Of a stretch of DNA of 64,000 nt, positions 6,295-21,900 are shown piece by piece. Each line of letters opens with the position of its first letter. Position 1 is the first letter of the stretch. Location: the sequence record PP328843.1; one strand, written 5' to 3'. A program made the translations under genes and the position numbers. Under the pieces are notes generated by a model that saw only the letters and a list, made by a program, of their open reading frames with translations, had not been told where the DNA came from and did no database searches. The DNA is from Escherichia phage 215Ecol030PP.

Positions 6295-6322
6295 CAAAAA
6301 GCCCCAACCTTTTGGTCGGGGC
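6295..6322 (-). terminator. intrinsic terminator (GCCCC-stem hairpin plus U-run on minus strand) after gene 6331-6804
   Basis: hairpin GCCCCAACC...GGTCGGGGC followed by T5 on minus strand. Confidence 0.55.
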
Positions 6323-6330
6323 TAAGAATG

Positions 6331-6804
6331 TTATTTGATTTGTTTAGCAGACCAAATGCGGTCTTTAATAATTTTTTGGATGTCTTCAACATACTCAAGA
6401 GAGTGAACATGTGGATTATCTTTGAAACTATAAGCACGGGCTAACTTTTGGCCTTCGGTTTTGATTACTAAAAGCTCTTTAAGGATAGCTTCATATTTGG
6501 AGATAATTCCTTTAACAATATTTTTCTCTTGTGTGACTTTAGGATCTGCTTTAGGAGCAGGTTTACCTGAAGCCTTTGCAAAAGCAGCTCCAGTAGCAAC
6601 TAAACTTTTCCAAGCCATACTAACTGCATTCCCTGTAAATCCTTCGGCTTTCATATCACGAGCAAATTGGAATCGTGATTCATCGGAAGCATCTTTATAG
6701 GAATATTTACCCGCGGCAATGGCAGCTTTTGCAACAGCTTGAATTTCAGTGCTAGATGCTTCATTTAACACCGCTTCATTTAAAAATTGAGTATATGATT
6801 TCAT
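6331..6804 (-). CDS. internal-protein-like protein with capsid-targeting-sequence-like N-terminus MKSYTQFLNE (157 aa)
   Basis: ORF track 6331..6981 begins with TTG inside upstream tRNA-like element; ATG at 6804 has SD AGGAAA; late promoter TATAAATA upstream. Confidence 0.6.
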   Translation of the reverse strand: MKSYTQFLNEAVLNEASSTEIQAVAKAAIAAGKYSYKDASDESRFQFARDMKAEGFTGNAVSMAWKSLVATGAAFAKASGKPAPKADPKVTQEKNIVKGIISKYEAILKELLVIKTEGQKLARAYSFKDNPHVHSLEYVEDIQKIIKDRIWSAKQIK

Positions 6805-6842
6805 CTTATTTCCTGTTTTAATTCGGGGTTTTAATATACTAA

Positions 6843-6850
6843 TATTTATA
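6843..6850 (-). promoter_or_regulatory. late promoter TATAAATA upstream of IP-like gene 6331-6804
   Basis: exact motif on minus strand between terminator hairpin and SD. Confidence 0.5.
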
Positions 6851-6852
6851 CT

Positions 6853-6879
6853 AAAAAGCCCCAACCTTTCGGTCGGGGC
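6853..6879 (-). terminator. intrinsic terminator at 3' end of the tRNA/small-RNA transcription unit
   Basis: near-duplicate of the 6295-6322 hairpin, T-run on minus strand. Confidence 0.55.
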
Positions 6880-7196
6880 TAAGCCTTGCGGCAACCTTGT
6901 CGGGGTTCCACCTGCTAAGGCAAGTGTTTGTACGAAACGCCGGGATTCGAACCCGGTTATTAAGCAGTTGACGCTACTCAATATTTTTAAAAGGCCATAT
7001 CTCGACCATATCCGAACGTTCCGTCAAAAACGCTACTCGGCTTATGGCAAAGATATTTCCTCGAATCGATAATTCGGTGCGCCGTTTCTGCTGTGATATA
7101 AGGGGGCATTAACAAAACATAAAGATTTATTAATGCCAGTCCTTAAACAGGGAACATCAGTCCGACGACTTGCCGGTAGCGACCCGGCTTCTTGTC

Positions 7197-7272
7197 TGGT
7201 CGAGGCAGTAGGGATCGAACCTACGACCCAGGACTTAGAAGGTCCTTGCTCTTCCTTCTGAGCTATGCCCCG
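7197..7272 (-). tRNA. tRNA-Arg (anticodon TCT), CCA encoded
   Basis: hand-folded cloverleaf: 7-bp acceptor, D stem GCTC/GAGC, anticodon loop CTTCTAA, T-loop TTCGATC. Confidence 0.8.
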
Positions 7273-7276
7273 TAAT

Positions 7277-7352
7277 TGGGGTGACCGATGGGAGTCGAAC
7301 CCATGACTACGAGAATCACAATCTCGAGTTCTACCAACTGAACTACGGCCAC
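7277..7352 (-). tRNA. tRNA-His (anticodon GTG), CCA encoded
   Basis: hand-folded cloverleaf; anticodon loop TTGTGAT; T-arm ATGGG/CCCAT. Confidence 0.75.
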
Positions 7353-7443
7353 ATTAATACCTACTCCAACAATCAAGATGTCTTCACACGAAATTAAGAG
7401 AAGAGTGATCAGTTCAACCCCTATAATCGCGTCAAGTAGATAT

Positions 7444-7465
7444 TAATGTGACAGTTGTCACAAAT
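7444..7465. promoter_or_regulatory. perfect CRP-consensus-like palindrome TGTGA-N6-TCACA (TAATGTGACAGTTGTCACAAAT)
   Basis: both CRP half-sites and 6-bp spacing exact, A/T flanks; lies 3' of tRNA-Asn. Confidence 0.4.
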
Positions 7466-7466
7466 T

Positions 7467-7728: not shown

Positions 7729-8214
7729 TTATTTTATGTAATATTTATTTAAAAACTTTCTAGCTTGAGTATGGCTAACATTTATAGCGTTTGCATAATT
7801 TTTAATAAAACCTCGTTCATCCATATTAAAATTTTCTAATATTTTTAATCGTCTAGTTATCTCATCTTGACTTAAGGTACTTGCATTATTTTTAGAAATT
7901 TTTTCTAAGGACTGTGCCGAGTGTTTTCGACCATTAAAATTAAAATTTTTAGATTTTGGAGGAAATCTAGCATTTAATCTCGCATCTTTTGTATTTTGAT
8001 TATTAGTTGCGCAATATATGTTATTTAATGAATATGGTCCTTTATCGCCGAAACGGCACATGCAGTATTCATGACCCTTTCTTCCACGCTTATCATAATT
8101 TCCCGTTGATTTCCACCAATGCAGCCATTCATCAAAAGTTAAATTCCATTCAATGTTTCTACGTATAGCAGAATTCCGCTGAGAAATATATTTTGCATAA
8201 TCTTCTTTCATCAC
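7729..8214 (-). CDS. putative HNH-family homing endonuclease embedded in the tRNA cluster (161 aa, GTG start)
   Basis: motif GHEYCMCRFGDKGPYSLNNIYCATNNQN resembles HNH core; basic C-terminal DNA-binding-like tail. Confidence 0.5.
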   Translation of the reverse strand: MMKEDYAKYISQRNSAIRRNIEWNLTFDEWLHWWKSTGNYDKRGRKGHEYCMCRFGDKGPYSLNNIYCATNNQNTKDARLNARFPPKSKNFNFNGRKHSAQSLEKISKNNASTLSQDEITRRLKILENFNMDERGFIKNYANAINVSHTQARKFLNKYYIK

Positions 8215-18906: not shown

Positions 18907-21900
18907 CAGTAAAAGCACCTTCAGTCACTAGTCTCAGAATTTCCAAGTTATCCGCAAATCAGGTGCAAGTACGCTGGGATGACGTTGGTGCTAATTTCTA
19001 CTATTTTGTAGAAATCGCTGAGACAAAAACGAACTCGGGGGAAAATCTCCCGAGTAATCAATACAGATGGATTAACTTAGGATATACTGCAAATAACAGC
19101 TTCTTTTTTGATGATGCTGACCCATTGACATCATACATTATCAGAGTAGCTACAGCTGCGCAAGATTTTGAGCAGTCTGATTGGATTTATACCGAAGAGT
19201 TTGAAACTTTTGCTACAAATGCTTATACATTTCAAAACATGATTGAAATGCAATTAGCCAATAAATTCATTCAGGAAAAATTTACTCTTAATAATTCTGA
19301 TTATGTTAATTTTAACAATGACACTATAATGGCTGCATTGATGAATGAATCATTTCAATTCAGCCCATCGTATGTTGATGTTTCATCAATAAGTAATTTT
19401 ATTATTGGTGAAAATGAGTATCATGAAATACAAGGTTCTATTCAGCAAGTATGTAAGGATATTAACCGAGTTTATTTGATGGAATCAGAAGGAATTCTAT
19501 ATCTTTTTGAGCGCTATCAACCTGTAGTTAAAGTATCCAATGATAAAGGACAAACCTGGAAAGCCGTAAAGCTCTTCAATGACCGTGTAGGATATCCTTT
19601 ATCTAAGACAGTATATTACCAATCTGCGAACACAACATACGTTCTAGGATACGACAAGATTTTCTATGGCCGTAAATCGACTGACGTTAGATGGTCAGCA
19701 GATGATGTCAGATTCAGTTCGCAGGATATAACATTTGCTAAACTTGGCGACCAGTTACATTTAGGATTTGATGTAGAAATCTTTGGTACTTATGCGACTT
19801 TACCAGCGAATGTATATCGTATAGCTGAAGCCATTACTTGTACGGATGATTATATCTATGTTGTTGCCAGAGATAAAGTTAGATATATAAAAACGAGCAA
19901 TGCACCTATAGATTCTGATCCATTATCTCCAACATATTCGGAAAGGCTATTTGAATCTGATACAATGACTATAACTGGAAATCCTAAAGCAGTATGCTAT
20001 AAAATGGATTCTATTGGTGATAAAGTTTTTGCTCTTATTATCGGTGAAGTTGAAACATTAAATGCTAATCCTAGAACGTCAAAAATAATTGATTCTACTG
20101 ATAAAGGAATATATGTTTTAAATCATGACACAAAAACGTGGAAAAGAGTTTTTGGCAACACTGAAGAAGAAAGAAGACGTATTCAACCTGGGTATGCGAA
20201 TATGTCAACTGATGGTAAATTAGTTTCTCTATCTTCGAGTAATTTTAAATTTTTAAATGATAACGTTGTTAATGACCCTGAAACTGTAGCAAAATATCAG
20301 TTAATCGGTGCCGTTAAATATGAATTTCCTCGTGAATGGTTAGCTGATAAGCATTATCATATGATGGCATTTATAGCAGATGAAAAGTCTGATTGGGAAA
20401 CTTTTACGCCTCAGCCAATGAAATACTACGCAGAACCGTTCTTTAATTGGTCTAAAAAATCTAACACACGCTGTTGGATAAACAACTCTAATAGAGCTGT
20501 AGTAGTTTATGCTGATTTAAAATACACTAAAGTTATAGAAAATATTCCGGAAACATCACCAGATAGATTAGTTCATGAATACTGGGATGATGGTGATTGT
20601 ACGATAGTAATGCCAAATGTTAAATTCACGGGATTTAAAAAATATGCGTCTGGGATGCTTTTTTATAAATCTTCTGGTGAAATAATTTCTTATTATGATT
20701 TTAACTATCGAGTGAGAGACACGGTTGAAATAATTTGGAAGCCAACTGGAATATTTTTAAAAGCATTTTTACAAAACCAAGAGCGTGAAACTCCTTGGTC
20801 ACCGGAAGAAGAGCATGGATTAGCTGATCCTGATTTAAGACCATTGATTGGCACAATGATGCCTGATTCTTATTTACTACAAGATTCGAATTTTGAGGCA
20901 TTTTGCGAAGCATATATTCAATATCTTTCTGATGGATATGGAACTCAGTATAACAATTTACGAAATTTAATTCGTAACAAATATCCACGAGAAGAGCATG
21001 CATGGGAATATTTGTGGTCAGAGATATATAAAAGAAACATTTATTTAAATGCTGACAAACGTGATGCTGTTGCAAGATTTTTTGAATCACGTAGCTATGA
21101 TTTTTATTCTACTAAAGGAATTGAAGCATCATACAAGTTTCTTTTTAAAGTTCTTTATAATGAAGAAGTTGAAATTGAAATTGAATCTGGGGCTGGTACT
21201 GAATATGACATAATCGTTCAATCTGATTCTTTGACTGAAGATTTAGTAGGACAAACGATTTATACAGCCACAGGAAGATGTAATGTTACTTATATAGAAA
21301 GAAGTTATTCTAATGGTAAATTGCAATGGACCGTAACTATTCATAATCTTTTGGGAAGATTAATTGCTGGTCAAGAAGTTAAAGCAGAAAGACTCCCTAG
21401 TTTTGAAGGCGAAATTATTCGTGGCGTTAAAGGAAAGGATTTGCTTCAAAACAATATAGACTATATTAATAGAAGTAGATCATACTATGTAATGAAAATT
21501 AAATCCAATTTACCTTCTTCCCGCTGGAAATCTGACGTTATTCGTTTTGTTCATCCAGTAGGATTTGGATTTATAGCAATTACCCTTTTAACAATGTTTA
21601 TTAATGTTGGTTTAACTCTTAAACATACAGAGACTATAATTAATAAATACAAAAACTATAAATGGGATTCTGGATTGCCTACTGAATATGCTGATAGAGT
21701 AGCTAAATTAACTCCAACTGGTGAAATTGAGCATGATTCAGTAACAGGCGAAGCAATTTATGAGCCTGGCCCAATGGCTGGTGTAGAATATCCTCTTCCT
21801 GATGACTATAATGCTGAAAATAATAATTCAATATTTCAAGGTCAATTGCCGTCTGAACGACGTAAATTAATGAGTCCCCTATTTGATGCTTCTGGAACAA

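What the first reader, a model, noticed from the sequence alone, without database searches (positions are those of the whole stretch)
6887..7196. ~300 nt structured non-coding region 3' of tRNA-Arg with a degenerate tRNA-like element
Between tRNA-Arg and the terminator at 6853-6879 there is no convincing ORF, but there is a canonical T-arm (CCGGGTTCGAATCCCGG, ~6940-6956) without a proper D-arm or acceptor stem, plus several stable hairpins (CGAAT-loop-ATTCG at ~7062-7076; 8-bp stem GGCATTAA/TTAATGCC at ~7104-7139; GCCGG/CCGGC at ~7172-7188). T4 encodes two stable small RNAs of unknown function (species 1 and 2, bands C and D) in its tRNA region; this may be their counterpart or a novel tRNA-derived RNA. 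The ORF-track protein 6331..6981 starts with TTG inside this element and is probably over-extended.
Basis: partly seen in the sequence, partly recalled or inferred. Interest (0 to 1): 0.4.

Follow-up and report, generated by a model that had tools for sequence, protein, structure and literature searches.

The report
T4 rnaC/rnaD stable RNA orthologs
The ~300-nt non-coding stretch after tRNA-Arg holds this T4-like phage's copies of two long-known stable small RNAs of unknown function (T4 rnaD and rnaC), and comparing relatives shows rnaC is a tRNA-shaped RNA whose two main loops pair with each other.

Summary
The window is a Tequatrovirus, 100% identical to RB14 over 6880-7196. The tRNA cluster is on the minus strand. 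The flagged region aligns base for base with T4 rnaD (species 2 RNA; window 7195-7076) and rnaC (species 1 RNA; 7069-6931, 136/139 identical). A conserved ~50-nt trailer and an intrinsic terminator follow. Its function is still described as unknown in papers from 2010, 2022 and 2025.

New here is a covariation-backed structure for rnaC from 34 distinct sequences in 10 genera. It is a four-way junction. There is also a T arm, a 70-nt arm of constant length where tRNA has a D arm, and a 10-bp hairpin where tRNA has an anticodon arm. The two hexaloops, UUGACG and CGUCAA, are perfectly complementary in every sequence, with two independent compensatory switches. An invariant CAA occupies the CCA slot. 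rnaC often sits exactly in a tRNA slot between two tRNAs. There is no Rfam family, no bacterial homologue and no antisense target.

Most likely both RNAs are cut out by tRNA-processing enzymes, and rnaC acts as a protein-binding tRNA mimic.

The parts
7197..7272 (-). tRNA-Arg(UCU), the last tRNA of the cluster, with CCA encoded. It is the upstream neighbour in the same transcription unit.
   Evidence: ARAGORN; Rfam tRNA, 63.9 bits.
7076..7195 (-). rnaD (T4 species 2 RNA ortholog), 120 nt. It consists of a 5' hairpin plus a long irregular hairpin, and ends in ...GGCGCACC.
   Evidence: Aligns with T4 rnaD, 71053-71171. MFE -39.1 kcal/mol, z = -3.8. RNAalifold on 11 sequences gives 10 pairs with compensatory change.
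7172..7188 (-). rnaD hairpin 1: a 5-bp stem GCCGG/CCGGC with an invariant 7-nt loop GUCGCUA.
   Evidence: The loop and four pairs are invariant in 11 sequences. The closing pair switches between G-C and A-U.
7105..7137 (-). Hypervariable tip of the long rnaD hairpin (GGCAUUAA...UUAAUGCC).
   Evidence: Three unrelated sequence versions (window/T4 type, T2 type, VR25/CLBP2 type) all form a hairpin here.
7070..7075 (-). Spacer GAAUUA between rnaD and rnaC. It is the same A/U-rich spacer type that separates tRNAs in this cluster, and is the presumed endonuclease site.
   Evidence: In other genera, 'CCA-AAUUA' from a tRNA precedes rnaC.
6931..7069 (-). rnaC (T4 species 1 RNA ortholog), 139 nt. It is a tRNA-shaped four-way junction.
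   Evidence: 136/139 identical to T4 rnaC. z = -4.1. RNAalifold gives 27 of 42 pairs compensatory. Pair counts: 93.8% paired, 29 of 49 pairs with double changes, 0 of 500 shuffles as good. CM R1 scores it at 158 bits.
7062..7068 (-). rnaC acceptor stem, 5' strand CGAUUCG. It pairs with 6939-6933.
   Evidence: Compensatory A-U/G-C and G-C/A-U changes occur. The two U.U mismatches become U-A and C-G in Tegunavirus.
6992..7061 (-). rnaC 'big arm' (nt 9-78), in the position of a tRNA D arm. It has five short helices and ends in the hexaloop UUGACG.
   Evidence: Helices 3-6 carry 15 compensatory pairs. The stretch that carries it (between the CGAGGA and GGCCT motifs) stays at 61-62 nt even where its sequence is entirely replaced.
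7022..7027 (-). Loop 1, UUGACG. It is the proposed kissing partner of loop 2.
6958..6983 (-). rnaC hairpin 2: a 10-bp stem with the hexaloop CGUCAA at 6973-6968, in the position of the anticodon arm.
   Evidence: 8 of 10 pairs are compensatory. Real tRNAs align their anticodon arm here under the CM.
6940..6956 (-). rnaC T arm, CCGGG-UUCGAAU-CCCGG.
   Evidence: The stem covaries (G-C, U-A, A-U).
6933..6939 (-). rnaC acceptor stem, 3' strand CGUUUCG. It is followed by U138 and a variable discriminator-like A139 (6932-6931).
6881..6930 (-). 3' trailer. It begins with a CAA (6930-6928) that is invariant in all 39 contexts and occupies the CCA slot. Three small hairpins follow.
   Evidence: The trailer is also kept in Dhakavirus CLBP2, which lacks rnaC, and in RB69.
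6852..6880 (-). Intrinsic terminator of the tRNA/rnaD/rnaC transcription unit.
   Evidence: 10-bp stem, 7 G-C pairs, U tract.

Best explanation
The region encodes the orthologs of phage T4 rnaD (species 2 RNA) and rnaC (species 1 RNA). Both are co-transcribed with the tRNA cluster up to the terminator at 6880-6857. They are then released from that precursor by the host nucleases that mature tRNAs.

**rnaC.** It is a tRNA mimic. Its two ends form an acceptor stem of 7 bp, with an optional eighth pair. That stem stacks on a T arm, which is the minihelix read by RNase P, RNase Z/BN and the CCA-adding enzyme. The experimentally based T4 ends (nt 1 and nt 139) coincide with the 5' end of that stem and with the discriminator position. 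In place of CCA the genome carries an invariant CAA.

The decoding half of a tRNA is replaced. A 70-nt arm of fixed length and a 10-bp hairpin occupy the D-arm and anticodon-arm positions. Their hexaloops, UUGACG and CGUCAA, pair with each other. The result is either a closed ring within one molecule or a bridge between two molecules. Either way, no anticodon-like loop is left free.

rnaC therefore cannot decode and is unlikely to act as an antisense RNA. The most likely mode of action is binding a protein that recognises the tRNA acceptor/T-arm or elbow. In T-even phages the tRNA cluster is an anti-defence locus, so the leading candidate partner is a tRNA-targeting host defence or processing enzyme.

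**rnaD.** It is an independent structured RNA. It has an invariant-loop hairpin plus a long hairpin with a free-to-vary tip, and it is retained in Dhakavirus, where rnaC is absent.

**Shown versus inferred.**
- Shown here: orthology, secondary structure, loop complementarity, and genomic context.
- Inferred: the processing enzymes, whether the kiss is intra- or intermolecular, and the function.

**Sub-probabilities.**
- Orthology: 0.97.
- Cloverleaf-like fold: 0.85.
- Loop-loop pairing: 0.7.
- Maturation by tRNA enzymes: 0.7.
- Protein-binding tRNA mimic: 0.45.
- Specifically anti-defence: 0.2.
For: **Orthology and synteny.** The window is 100% identical to RB14 over this region, and rnaC/rnaD are annotated in RB3. 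rnaC is also annotated in RB33, ATK47 and RB68.

**Fold.**
- MFE z-scores are -4.1 and -3.8.
- RNAalifold independently gives the four-way junction.
- On 19 sequences, 93.8% of cells are paired and 29 of 49 pairs show double changes. This compares with 4-9 pairs when the partners are slid, and no shuffle out of 500 does as well.
- The acceptor stem covaries. The rival internal 'acceptor' ACGGAACG suggested by a weak tRNA-Sec hit breaks in EcS1 and phiR1-RT.

**Kissing loops.**
- All six pairs form in all 34 distinct sequences.
- Only three loop-pair variants exist: UUGACG/CGUCAA, UUGGCG/CGCCAA and UUGAUG/CAUCAA. That means two independent compensatory events and no uncompensated change.
- The stems flanking both loops covary, so the local hairpins are real.
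- The stretch that carries the big arm is fixed at 61-62 nt despite sequence replacement.

**tRNA-like context.**
- rnaC lies exactly between two tRNAs in EcS1, Pet-CM3-4 and LC53. Flanking tRNA-like sequence (a 5' ...GCCA end and a 3' GCAUCC start) in KM16 and PS49 indicates the same arrangement, although no tRNAs are annotated there.
- It has the same AAUUA spacer as tRNAs, plus an invariant CAA after a variable discriminator-like base.
- The rnaC covariance model weakly aligns real tRNAs arm for arm.

**Expression and function in the literature.**
- T4 RNAC and RNAD are discrete late RNAs on Northern blots, with function unknown (PMC9697503; PMC3014915).
- A convergent SNP arose in rnaD in all lines of a T4-like phage evolved on the semi-permissive host ECOR34 (PMC12685909).
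- The T-even tRNA locus counters tRNA-cleaving defences (PMC13096335).

**From my own recollection of the older literature, not verified here.** A dimeric species 2 + species 1 precursor (p2Sp1) is cut by RNase E, and T4 deletions removing the tRNA region are viable on laboratory hosts.
Against: - There are no expression or end-mapping data for this phage, and the enzymes are inferred.
- The loop-loop pairing rests on only two evolutionary events. Its geometry (an intramolecular ring needs a sharp bend in the big arm) was not modelled.
- The T loop is not canonical in Winklervirus or Entb_45 (UGCAUUC, UGCAUCC and UGCAUGC), so full tRNA mimicry is not universal.
- The acceptor stem carries two conserved U.U mismatches, and the 3' tail is CAA, not CCA.
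- rnaC is missing from Dhakavirus CLBP2 and from the Aeromonas phage 44RR tRNA cluster, so it is dispensable.
- No protein partner or phenotype is known.
Confidence: 0.6

Rival explanations
1. Base-pairing regulatory sRNAs. rnaC and/or rnaD act in trans by antisense pairing with phage or host mRNAs, as Hfq-type sRNAs do.
For: They are small, abundant, late-accumulating non-coding RNAs (PMC9697503). rnaD has an invariant 7-nt loop and invariant single-stranded stretches.
Against: - The conserved rnaC loops are complementary to each other rather than left free.
- No complementarity beyond chance (11-12-mers in AT-rich sequence) was found to the other 64 kb of the window.
- The rnaD-rnaC duplex energy is not better than shuffles, with 80 of 300 as good.
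- The mature RNAs lack the terminator hairpin and U tail typical of Hfq sRNAs, which lies about 50 nt downstream.
- Host targets were not searched.
Confidence: 0.12
2. A cis-acting 3' module of the tRNA operon. The structured region mainly protects the polycistronic tRNA precursor from 3' exonucleases or directs its processing. On this view the stable fragments are by-products with no trans function.
For: The region lies between the last tRNA and the terminator. A conserved trailer plus terminator follows it. It shares spacer and processing signals with tRNAs.
Against: - rnaC keeps its whole fold, loop complementarity and fixed arm length when it sits in the middle of tRNA clusters, or at their start in Tegunavirus, far from any 3' end.
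- A mere protective hairpin would not need 29 covarying pairs and two matched hexaloops.
Confidence: 0.1
3. A decaying tRNA pseudogene or neutral spacer. On this view the T arm is a relic and the hairpins are fortuitous.
For: ARAGORN and the Rfam tRNA model do not call it. The region lies inside a tRNA cluster prone to rearrangement, with insertions in T2 and RB69.
Against: - The element is conserved across 10 genera, with compensatory rather than random substitutions, including in the non-tRNA arms.
- It is 136/139 identical to T4, while neighbouring DNA and the rnaD tip diverge.
- It is known as an abundant stable RNA in T4.
Confidence: 0.02
4. Small protein genes. On this view the short ORFs in the region (34-42 aa) are the functional products, as many automatic annotations imply.
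For: ORFs 6987-7115(-), 6968-7072(+) and 7133-7261(+) exist. Several GenBank records annotate hypothetical proteins here.
Against: - The ORFs use weak starts and cross the rnaD/rnaC boundary or the tRNA-Arg gene.
- Substitutions are paired across stems rather than codon-patterned.
- Indels of 1-2 nt are tolerated.
- T4 reference annotation and Northern data define RNAs here.
Confidence: 0.02

Closest known systems
Phage T4 rnaC (species 1 RNA, band C) and rnaD (species 2 RNA, band D), NC_000866 70908-71046 and 71053-71171
   Same: The order is identical: tRNA-Arg, rnaD, 6-nt spacer, rnaC, trailer, terminator. rnaC is 136/139 identical. The rnaD 5' 48 nt and 3' 22 nt are nearly identical.
   Different: The tip of the long rnaD hairpin differs by substitutions and two 1-nt indels. 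The tRNA set upstream also differs: this phage has His, Asn, Tyr and Met and lacks Thr, Ile and segB. These are strain-level differences only.
Canonical tRNA (Rfam RF00005)
   Same: rnaC has an acceptor stem closed by the two ends, a 5-bp T stem with a GUUCGAAUC loop, and a four-helix junction topology. It sits in tRNA slots with tRNA-type spacers.
   Different: - It has no D arm, and no 5-bp anticodon stem with a 7-nt loop.
- The 70-nt arm and the 10-bp hairpin have loops that pair with each other.
- There are tandem U.U mismatches in the acceptor stem.
- CAA stands in place of CCA.
- It is not detected by ARAGORN or the Rfam tRNA model.
tRNA-like domain of tmRNA, and other acceptor/T-arm mimics such as viral 3' tRNA-like structures and bacterial YrlA Y RNAs (from established knowledge)
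   Same: These also keep the acceptor/T-arm half of tRNA as a handle for tRNA enzymes while replacing the decoding half.
   Different: - rnaC has no tag reading frame and no G3.U70; position 3:70 is G-C or A-U.
- ARAGORN finds no tmRNA.
- No Rfam hit to tmRNA or any other family is significant; the best non-tRNA E-values are 0.098-8.4, all far below gathering scores.
- In YrlA the RNA ends form the Ro-binding stem, not the acceptor stem.
Loop-loop (kissing) complexes: TAR-TAR* and ColE1 RNA I/RNA II fully paired loops, and phi29 pRNA, whose two complementary loops link monomers into a ring (from established knowledge)
   Same: They have two hairpin loops with complete Watson-Crick complementarity, maintained by covariation. 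Fully paired hexaloops are sterically possible.
   Different: There is no sequence or genomic relation. T4 packaging needs no RNA. Whether the rnaC loops pair within one molecule or between molecules is unknown.

Membership tests
T4 rnaC (species 1 RNA) | Sequence orthology to T4 70908-71046 | tested here: met
   136/139 identical and gap-free. Scores 158 bits against the family covariance model.
T4 rnaC (species 1 RNA) | Position downstream of the tRNA cluster and rnaD, upstream of the operon terminator | tested here: met
T4 rnaC (species 1 RNA) | Accumulates as a discrete stable ~140-nt RNA in infected cells | not testable with these tools
   Shown for T4 by Northern blot (PMC9697503). There are no data for this phage.
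T4 rnaD (species 2 RNA) | Sequence orthology to T4 71053-71171, starting directly after tRNA-Arg | tested here: met
   Aligned over 116 of 119 nt with three 1-nt indels. The conserved 5' and 3' blocks are present.
tRNA (RF00005) | Acceptor stem formed by the 5' and 3' ends, stacked on a T arm | tested here: met
   Covarying 7-bp stem, with an eighth A-U pair in some sequences, plus a T arm.
tRNA (RF00005) | D arm, and a 5-bp anticodon stem with a 7-nt loop presenting an anticodon | tested here: not met
   These are replaced by a 70-nt arm and a 10-bp hairpin with a 6-nt loop that pairs with the other arm. Neither ARAGORN nor the Rfam tRNA model calls it.
tRNA (RF00005) | 3' CCA, either encoded or added | tested here: inconclusive
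   The genome has an invariant CAA after a variable discriminator-like base. Whether CCA is added after trimming cannot be told from sequence.
tmRNA | tRNA-Ala-like domain with G3.U70 plus a tag-peptide reading frame | tested here: not met
   ARAGORN finds no tmRNA. The only tmRNA-family hit is a 17-nt T-arm fragment at E = 8.4. Pair 3:70 is G-C, A-U or G.U in one sequence.
Hfq-type base-pairing sRNA | A free conserved seed complementary to mRNA targets, and a 3' terminator hairpin with a U tail in the mature RNA | tested here: not met
   No complementarity above chance was found within the window. The conserved loops are self-complementary. The terminator lies about 50 nt beyond the mature 3' end mapped in T4. 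Host targets were not tested.
Any curated Rfam family (release 15) | Match at gathering score | tested here: not met
   Only the 10 tRNAs reach threshold in the window. Within 6780-7300 the best non-tRNA E-values are 0.098-8.4, all far below gathering scores.

The most novel reading that the evidence does not exclude
rnaC is a new class of tRNA mimic. It keeps an acceptor/T-arm handle, which gets it matured and recognised like a tRNA. This handle is attached to a rigid ring, or to a dimer, locked by a 6-bp kissing interaction between the loops standing in for the D and anticodon arms. It would act as a decoy or inhibitor for a tRNA-targeting host defence nuclease or other tRNA-binding enzyme, which would explain a 50-year-old orphan RNA. 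rnaD would be a second, independent host-range RNA, consistent with the convergent SNP seen on ECOR34.
Probability: 0.15. Interest if true: 0.75.

Novelty: already known. Interest (0 to 1): 0.33.

Why it matters
As a genome feature this is ordinary: it is the expected rnaD/rnaC pair of a T-even phage. Still, these are among the oldest orphan RNAs in molecular biology. They were sequenced in the 1970s, and papers from 2010 to 2025 still call their function unknown.

The comparative structure derived here turns that open question into concrete experiments. The key elements are the real acceptor stem, the matched hexaloops, the fixed arm length, the CAA in the CCA slot and the residence in tRNA slots across 10 genera.

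The work also supplies a seed alignment and model for a missing Rfam family. It flags hundreds of GenBank records in which these RNAs are unannotated or covered by spurious 'hypothetical protein' calls.

Tried and rejected
- **Rfam.** Searches at gathering score and at E <= 10 find no family. The weak tRNA-Sec-like hit (E = 1.7) pairs the 3' strand with an internal segment, ACGGAACG. That pairing breaks in EcS1 and phiR1-RT, so it is rejected in favour of the terminal acceptor stem.
It is not conserved in T4 or in other genera, and it is split by the rnaD/rnaC boundary.
- **Antisense targets.** Exact complements of 11 nt or more to rnaC/rnaD elsewhere in the window are only AT-rich chance matches. 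The rnaD-rnaC duplex is no better than shuffles.
- **Origin from a specific tRNA.** Local alignment of rnaC to the 10 tRNAs of the window finds only the T loop.
- **Host homologue.** A structure-anchored pattern found nothing in 185,579 bacterial and archaeal genomes. Metagenome hits were all the same phage clades.
- **Wider viral search.** The loose pattern returned 42 viral loci. Of the 31 not already held, 23 failed the covariance model and are false positives.
- **Aeromonas phage 44RR.** In its tRNA cluster the model hits only genuine tRNAs, at 7-16 bits.
- **Literature.** Searches for a recent functional study found none, and one query was wasted on 'RNase F' word matches. The 1970s-80s primary papers and the 2003 T4 genome review are not in the library.
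- **Neighbouring ORFs.** Pfam finds nothing for the two neighbouring ORFs.
Full report
**What the window is**

The window is a T4-like phage of the genus Tequatrovirus. The 501 bases around the finding match about 730 phage records at 80-99% identity. Bases 6880-7196 are 100% identical to phage RB14 (H31).

ARAGORN and Rfam find ten tRNA genes, all on the minus strand from 8674 down to 7197. The last is tRNA-Arg(UCU) at 7272-7197. The finding must therefore be read on the minus strand, from 7196 down to about 6850.

**Observation check**

- The T arm CCGGGUUCGAAUCCCGG is at 6956-6940.
- The hairpins are at 7076-7062, 7137-7105 and 7188-7172.
- The terminator is at 6880-6857.

The T-loop motif GGTTCRANTCC occurs nine times in 64 kb against 0.18 expected by chance. 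Eight copies are in tRNAs and the ninth is here. Only 34-42 aa ORFs overlap the region. The two RNA segments fold much better than dinucleotide shuffles, with z = -4.1 and -3.8 and 0 of 200 shuffles as stable.

The ORF 6331..6981 begins with a TTG inside the RNA and reads through the terminator. The real start is the ATG at 6804, preceded by AGGAAAUAAG. That gives 157 aa and matches a 474-nt CDS annotated in phage NBG2 and PHROG 2280.

**Identity**

The T4 reference record annotates two misc_RNAs immediately after tRNA-Arg: rnaD ("species 2 RNA", 119 nt) and rnaC ("species 1 RNA", 139 nt). The window aligns with this segment end to end.
- rnaD maps to 7195-7076.
- A 6-nt spacer, GAAUUA, maps to 7075-7070.
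- rnaC maps to 7069-6931, with 136 of 139 bases identical and no gap.

Records for RB3, RB33, RB68 and ATK47 carry rnaC and/or rnaD annotations under the same matches.

The literature held here still gives no function:
- "their biological roles are unknown" (PMC3014915).
- "RNAs of yet unknown functions", classified as late RNAs and confirmed by Northern blot (PMC9697503).
- A 2025 experimental-evolution study found one convergent SNP, inside rnaD, in all lines of a T4-like phage adapted to the semi-permissive host ECOR34 (PMC12685909).

There is no Rfam family for either RNA.

**Anatomy of rnaC from comparative data**

BLAST at low stringency, two pattern scans of viral contigs, one scan of metagenomes and a covariance model (R1) gathered 34 distinct rnaC sequences. 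The sequences come from these genera:
- Tequatrovirus
- Mosigvirus (RB69, where the RNA is unannotated)
- Gaprivervirus
- Karamvirus
- Kanagawavirus
- Kagamiyamavirus
- Moonvirus
- Tegunavirus
- Winklervirus
- Marfavirus

RNAalifold, given no hint, predicts a four-way junction with 42 pairs, 27 of them showing compensatory change. Counting my slightly extended version on 19 sequences gives these results:
- 93.8% of cells are paired.
- 29 of 49 pairs have changes on both sides.
- No shuffle out of 500 does as well.
- Only 4-9 pairs show double changes when the partners are slid by 1-3 columns.

The helices are as follows.
1. **Acceptor stem.** Nt 2-8 pair with nt 131-137.
   - Pair 4:135 switches between A-U and G-C.
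   - Pair 3:136 switches between G-C, A-U and G.U.
   - The two U.U mismatches of most lineages become U-A and C-G in Tegunavirus.
   - Nt 1 is A in five of the 19 sequences and then pairs with the invariant U138.
2. **Three-bp helix.** An invariant AGG/CCU helix opens the big arm.
3. **Big arm.** It spans nt 9-78 and has four further short helices, all of which covary.
4. **Linker.** An A-rich 8-nt linker follows.
5. **Hairpin 2.** It has 10 bp, of which 8 are compensatory, and a 6-nt loop.
6. **T arm.** One nucleotide later comes the T arm, joined directly to the acceptor 3' strand.

The internal 'acceptor' ACGGAACG that a weak tRNA-Sec-like Rfam hit suggested (E = 1.7) loses its pairing in EcS1 and phiR1-RT and is rejected.

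Under the model, genuine tRNAs align arm for arm at 7-16 bits. Their D arm falls on the big arm and their anticodon arm on hairpin 2. The topology is that of a cloverleaf.

**Loop-loop pairing**

The apical hexaloop of the big arm is UUGACG (7027-7022). The loop of hairpin 2 is CGUCAA (6973-6968). These are perfect Watson-Crick complements.

Across the 34 distinct sequences only three combinations occur:
- UUGACG/CGUCAA in 25 sequences.
- UUGGCG/CGCCAA in 6 sequences (Marfavirus-type).
- UUGAUG/CAUCAA in 3 sequences (Tegunavirus).

That amounts to two independent double substitutions and no uncompensated change, so pairing is 100%. Both flanking stems covary, so the local hairpins are real and the loop complementarity is a tertiary or intermolecular contact.

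The big arm's sequence is almost wholly replaced in KLB31, KMB17 and Marfavirus. The stretch that carries it nonetheless stays at 61-62 nt, and the following segment at 32-34 nt. That is what a ring closure or a symmetric dimer would demand.

From established knowledge, fully paired hexaloop kisses are sterically feasible (TAR-TAR*). Complementary loops can also link monomers, as in phi29 pRNA. Sequence alone cannot decide between the intramolecular and intermolecular cases, and two events is modest evidence. I put the pairing at about 0.7.

**tRNA-type context and ends**

In EcS1, Pet-CM3-4 and LC53, rnaC sits exactly between two annotated tRNAs. In KM16 and PS49 no tRNAs are annotated there, but the flanks have the same form: a ...GCCA end upstream and a GCAUCC... 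start downstream. In Tegunavirus rnaC opens a cluster. In the T4 group it follows rnaD.

The spacer in front, AAUUA or a similar sequence after a tRNA's CCA or after rnaD's ...ACC(A/G), is the same A/U-rich type that separates the tRNAs of this window.

After the stem come the invariant U138 and then a variable base (A, C or U) that behaves like a discriminator. Next comes CAA, which is invariant in all 39 sequence contexts whatever follows it. CAA thus occupies the CCA slot.

The T4-annotated ends, nt 1 and nt 139, coincide with the 5' end of the 8-position stem and with the discriminator. These are where RNase P (or an RNase E cut in the spacer) and RNase Z/BN would cut a CCA-less pre-tRNA. 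This step is inference from established tRNA-processing rules plus my unverified recollection that the species 2-species 1 dimer precursor is an RNase E substrate.

**rnaD and the trailer**

rnaD occurs only in the T4-proximal genera: Tequatrovirus, Mosigvirus, Gaprivervirus and Dhakavirus. It has a 5-bp hairpin with an invariant loop GUCGCUA, whose closing pair switches between G-C and A-U. It also has a long irregular hairpin. The base of that hairpin is invariant, while its tip exists in three unrelated sequence versions that all fold.

Dhakavirus CLBP2 keeps rnaD and the trailer but lacks exactly the rnaC module, so the two RNAs are separable.

The ~50-nt trailer (6930-6881) is conserved and forms three small hairpins before the terminator.

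**Mechanism**

rnaC has no free anticodon-like loop, so it cannot decode. No antisense target stands out. It has no bacterial homologue. It is under strong structural selection across 10 genera.

It does retain the acceptor/T-arm minihelix, the part of tRNA that proteins read. The best-supported model is therefore an RNA matured like a tRNA that acts by binding a tRNA-recognising protein.

T-even tRNA clusters are now known to counter tRNA-cleaving defences such as Septu (PMC13096335). rnaD also shows a host-specific adaptive SNP. An anti-defence or host-range role is thus the leading specific guess, but it is only association, at about 0.2.

Points against:
- Winklervirus and Entb_45 have non-canonical T loops.
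- The tail is not CCA.
- rnaC is absent from Dhakavirus and from the Aeromonas phage 44RR tRNA cluster.
- No partner is known.

**Verdict**

Its intrinsic interest as a scan hit is low to moderate.

The added value is the covariation-supported architecture of rnaC, especially the matched hexaloops and the CAA tail. Together these give specific experiments for an old open question.

Noticed in passing
window 6300-6323 and 6857-6880 (minus strand), flanking ORF 6331-6804: Two near-identical terminator hairpins (AGCCCCGACC-A/G-AAAGGUUGGGGCU plus a U tract) bracket a 157-aa ORF of unknown function (PHROG 2280, no Pfam hit). In T4, no CDS is annotated for about 280 nt downstream of rnaC (the next one is e.8). 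It looks like a gene cassette inserted or exchanged by recombination between duplicated terminators.
   Followed up: partly
window 7729-8214 (minus strand): A 161-aa ORF (PHROG 16521, unknown function, no Pfam hit) lies in the 538-nt gap between the two tRNA sub-clusters. In T4 the corresponding inter-subcluster gap holds the homing endonuclease segB. It may be another mobile or anti-defence gene in the tRNA locus.
   Followed up: partly
window 7353-7466, palindrome at 7447-7462: The 114-nt gap between tRNA-His and tRNA-Asn contains a perfect inverted repeat, TGTGACA-GT-TGTCACA, and a TTGACG motif on the minus strand. This could be an internal promoter or operator, or a processing site, within the tRNA cluster.
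   Followed up: no
L010 (T2) 152-502, L011 (UFV09) 152-502, L072 (RB69) 19421-19765: In T2, UFV09 and RB69 a CDS of about 350 nt is inserted between tRNA-Arg and rnaD. rnaD therefore does not need to abut tRNA-Arg. Only AAGAA upstream of its first hairpin stays conserved.
   Followed up: partly
L008 (Dhakavirus CLBP2) around 770-860: The rnaC module, with its spacer, is precisely absent: rnaD ...GGCGCACC-GA joins directly to the trailer ACACUUGCC. rnaC thus behaves as a discrete insertable or deletable unit.
   Followed up: partly
L074-L075 (Winklervirus) 121-260 and L004 (Entb_45) 709-848: In these lineages the rnaC T loop is UGCAUUC, UGCAUCC or UGCAUGC instead of UUCGAAU, while the stem, the acceptor and the kissing loops are kept. 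The canonical T-loop sequence is therefore not essential to the family.
   Followed up: no
L072 (RB69 RefSeq) 19160-19430; L011 575-870; L025 307-553; many hits: rnaC and rnaD are unannotated in RB69 and in most of the ~800 matching records. In many records they are overlaid with 'hypothetical protein' CDS calls, which is a systematic annotation error in T4-like phage genomes.
   Followed up: partly
window 7040-7032 and 6980-6972 (rnaC nt 30-38 and nt 90-98): The 9-mer GAGUAGCGU occurs twice in rnaC, each time ending at the start of (or one base into) one of the two hexaloops. This hints that the two kissing hairpins arose by internal duplication. The rnaD loop CGCUAC is complementary to the GUAGCG inside this repeat, but that could be chance.
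   Followed up: no
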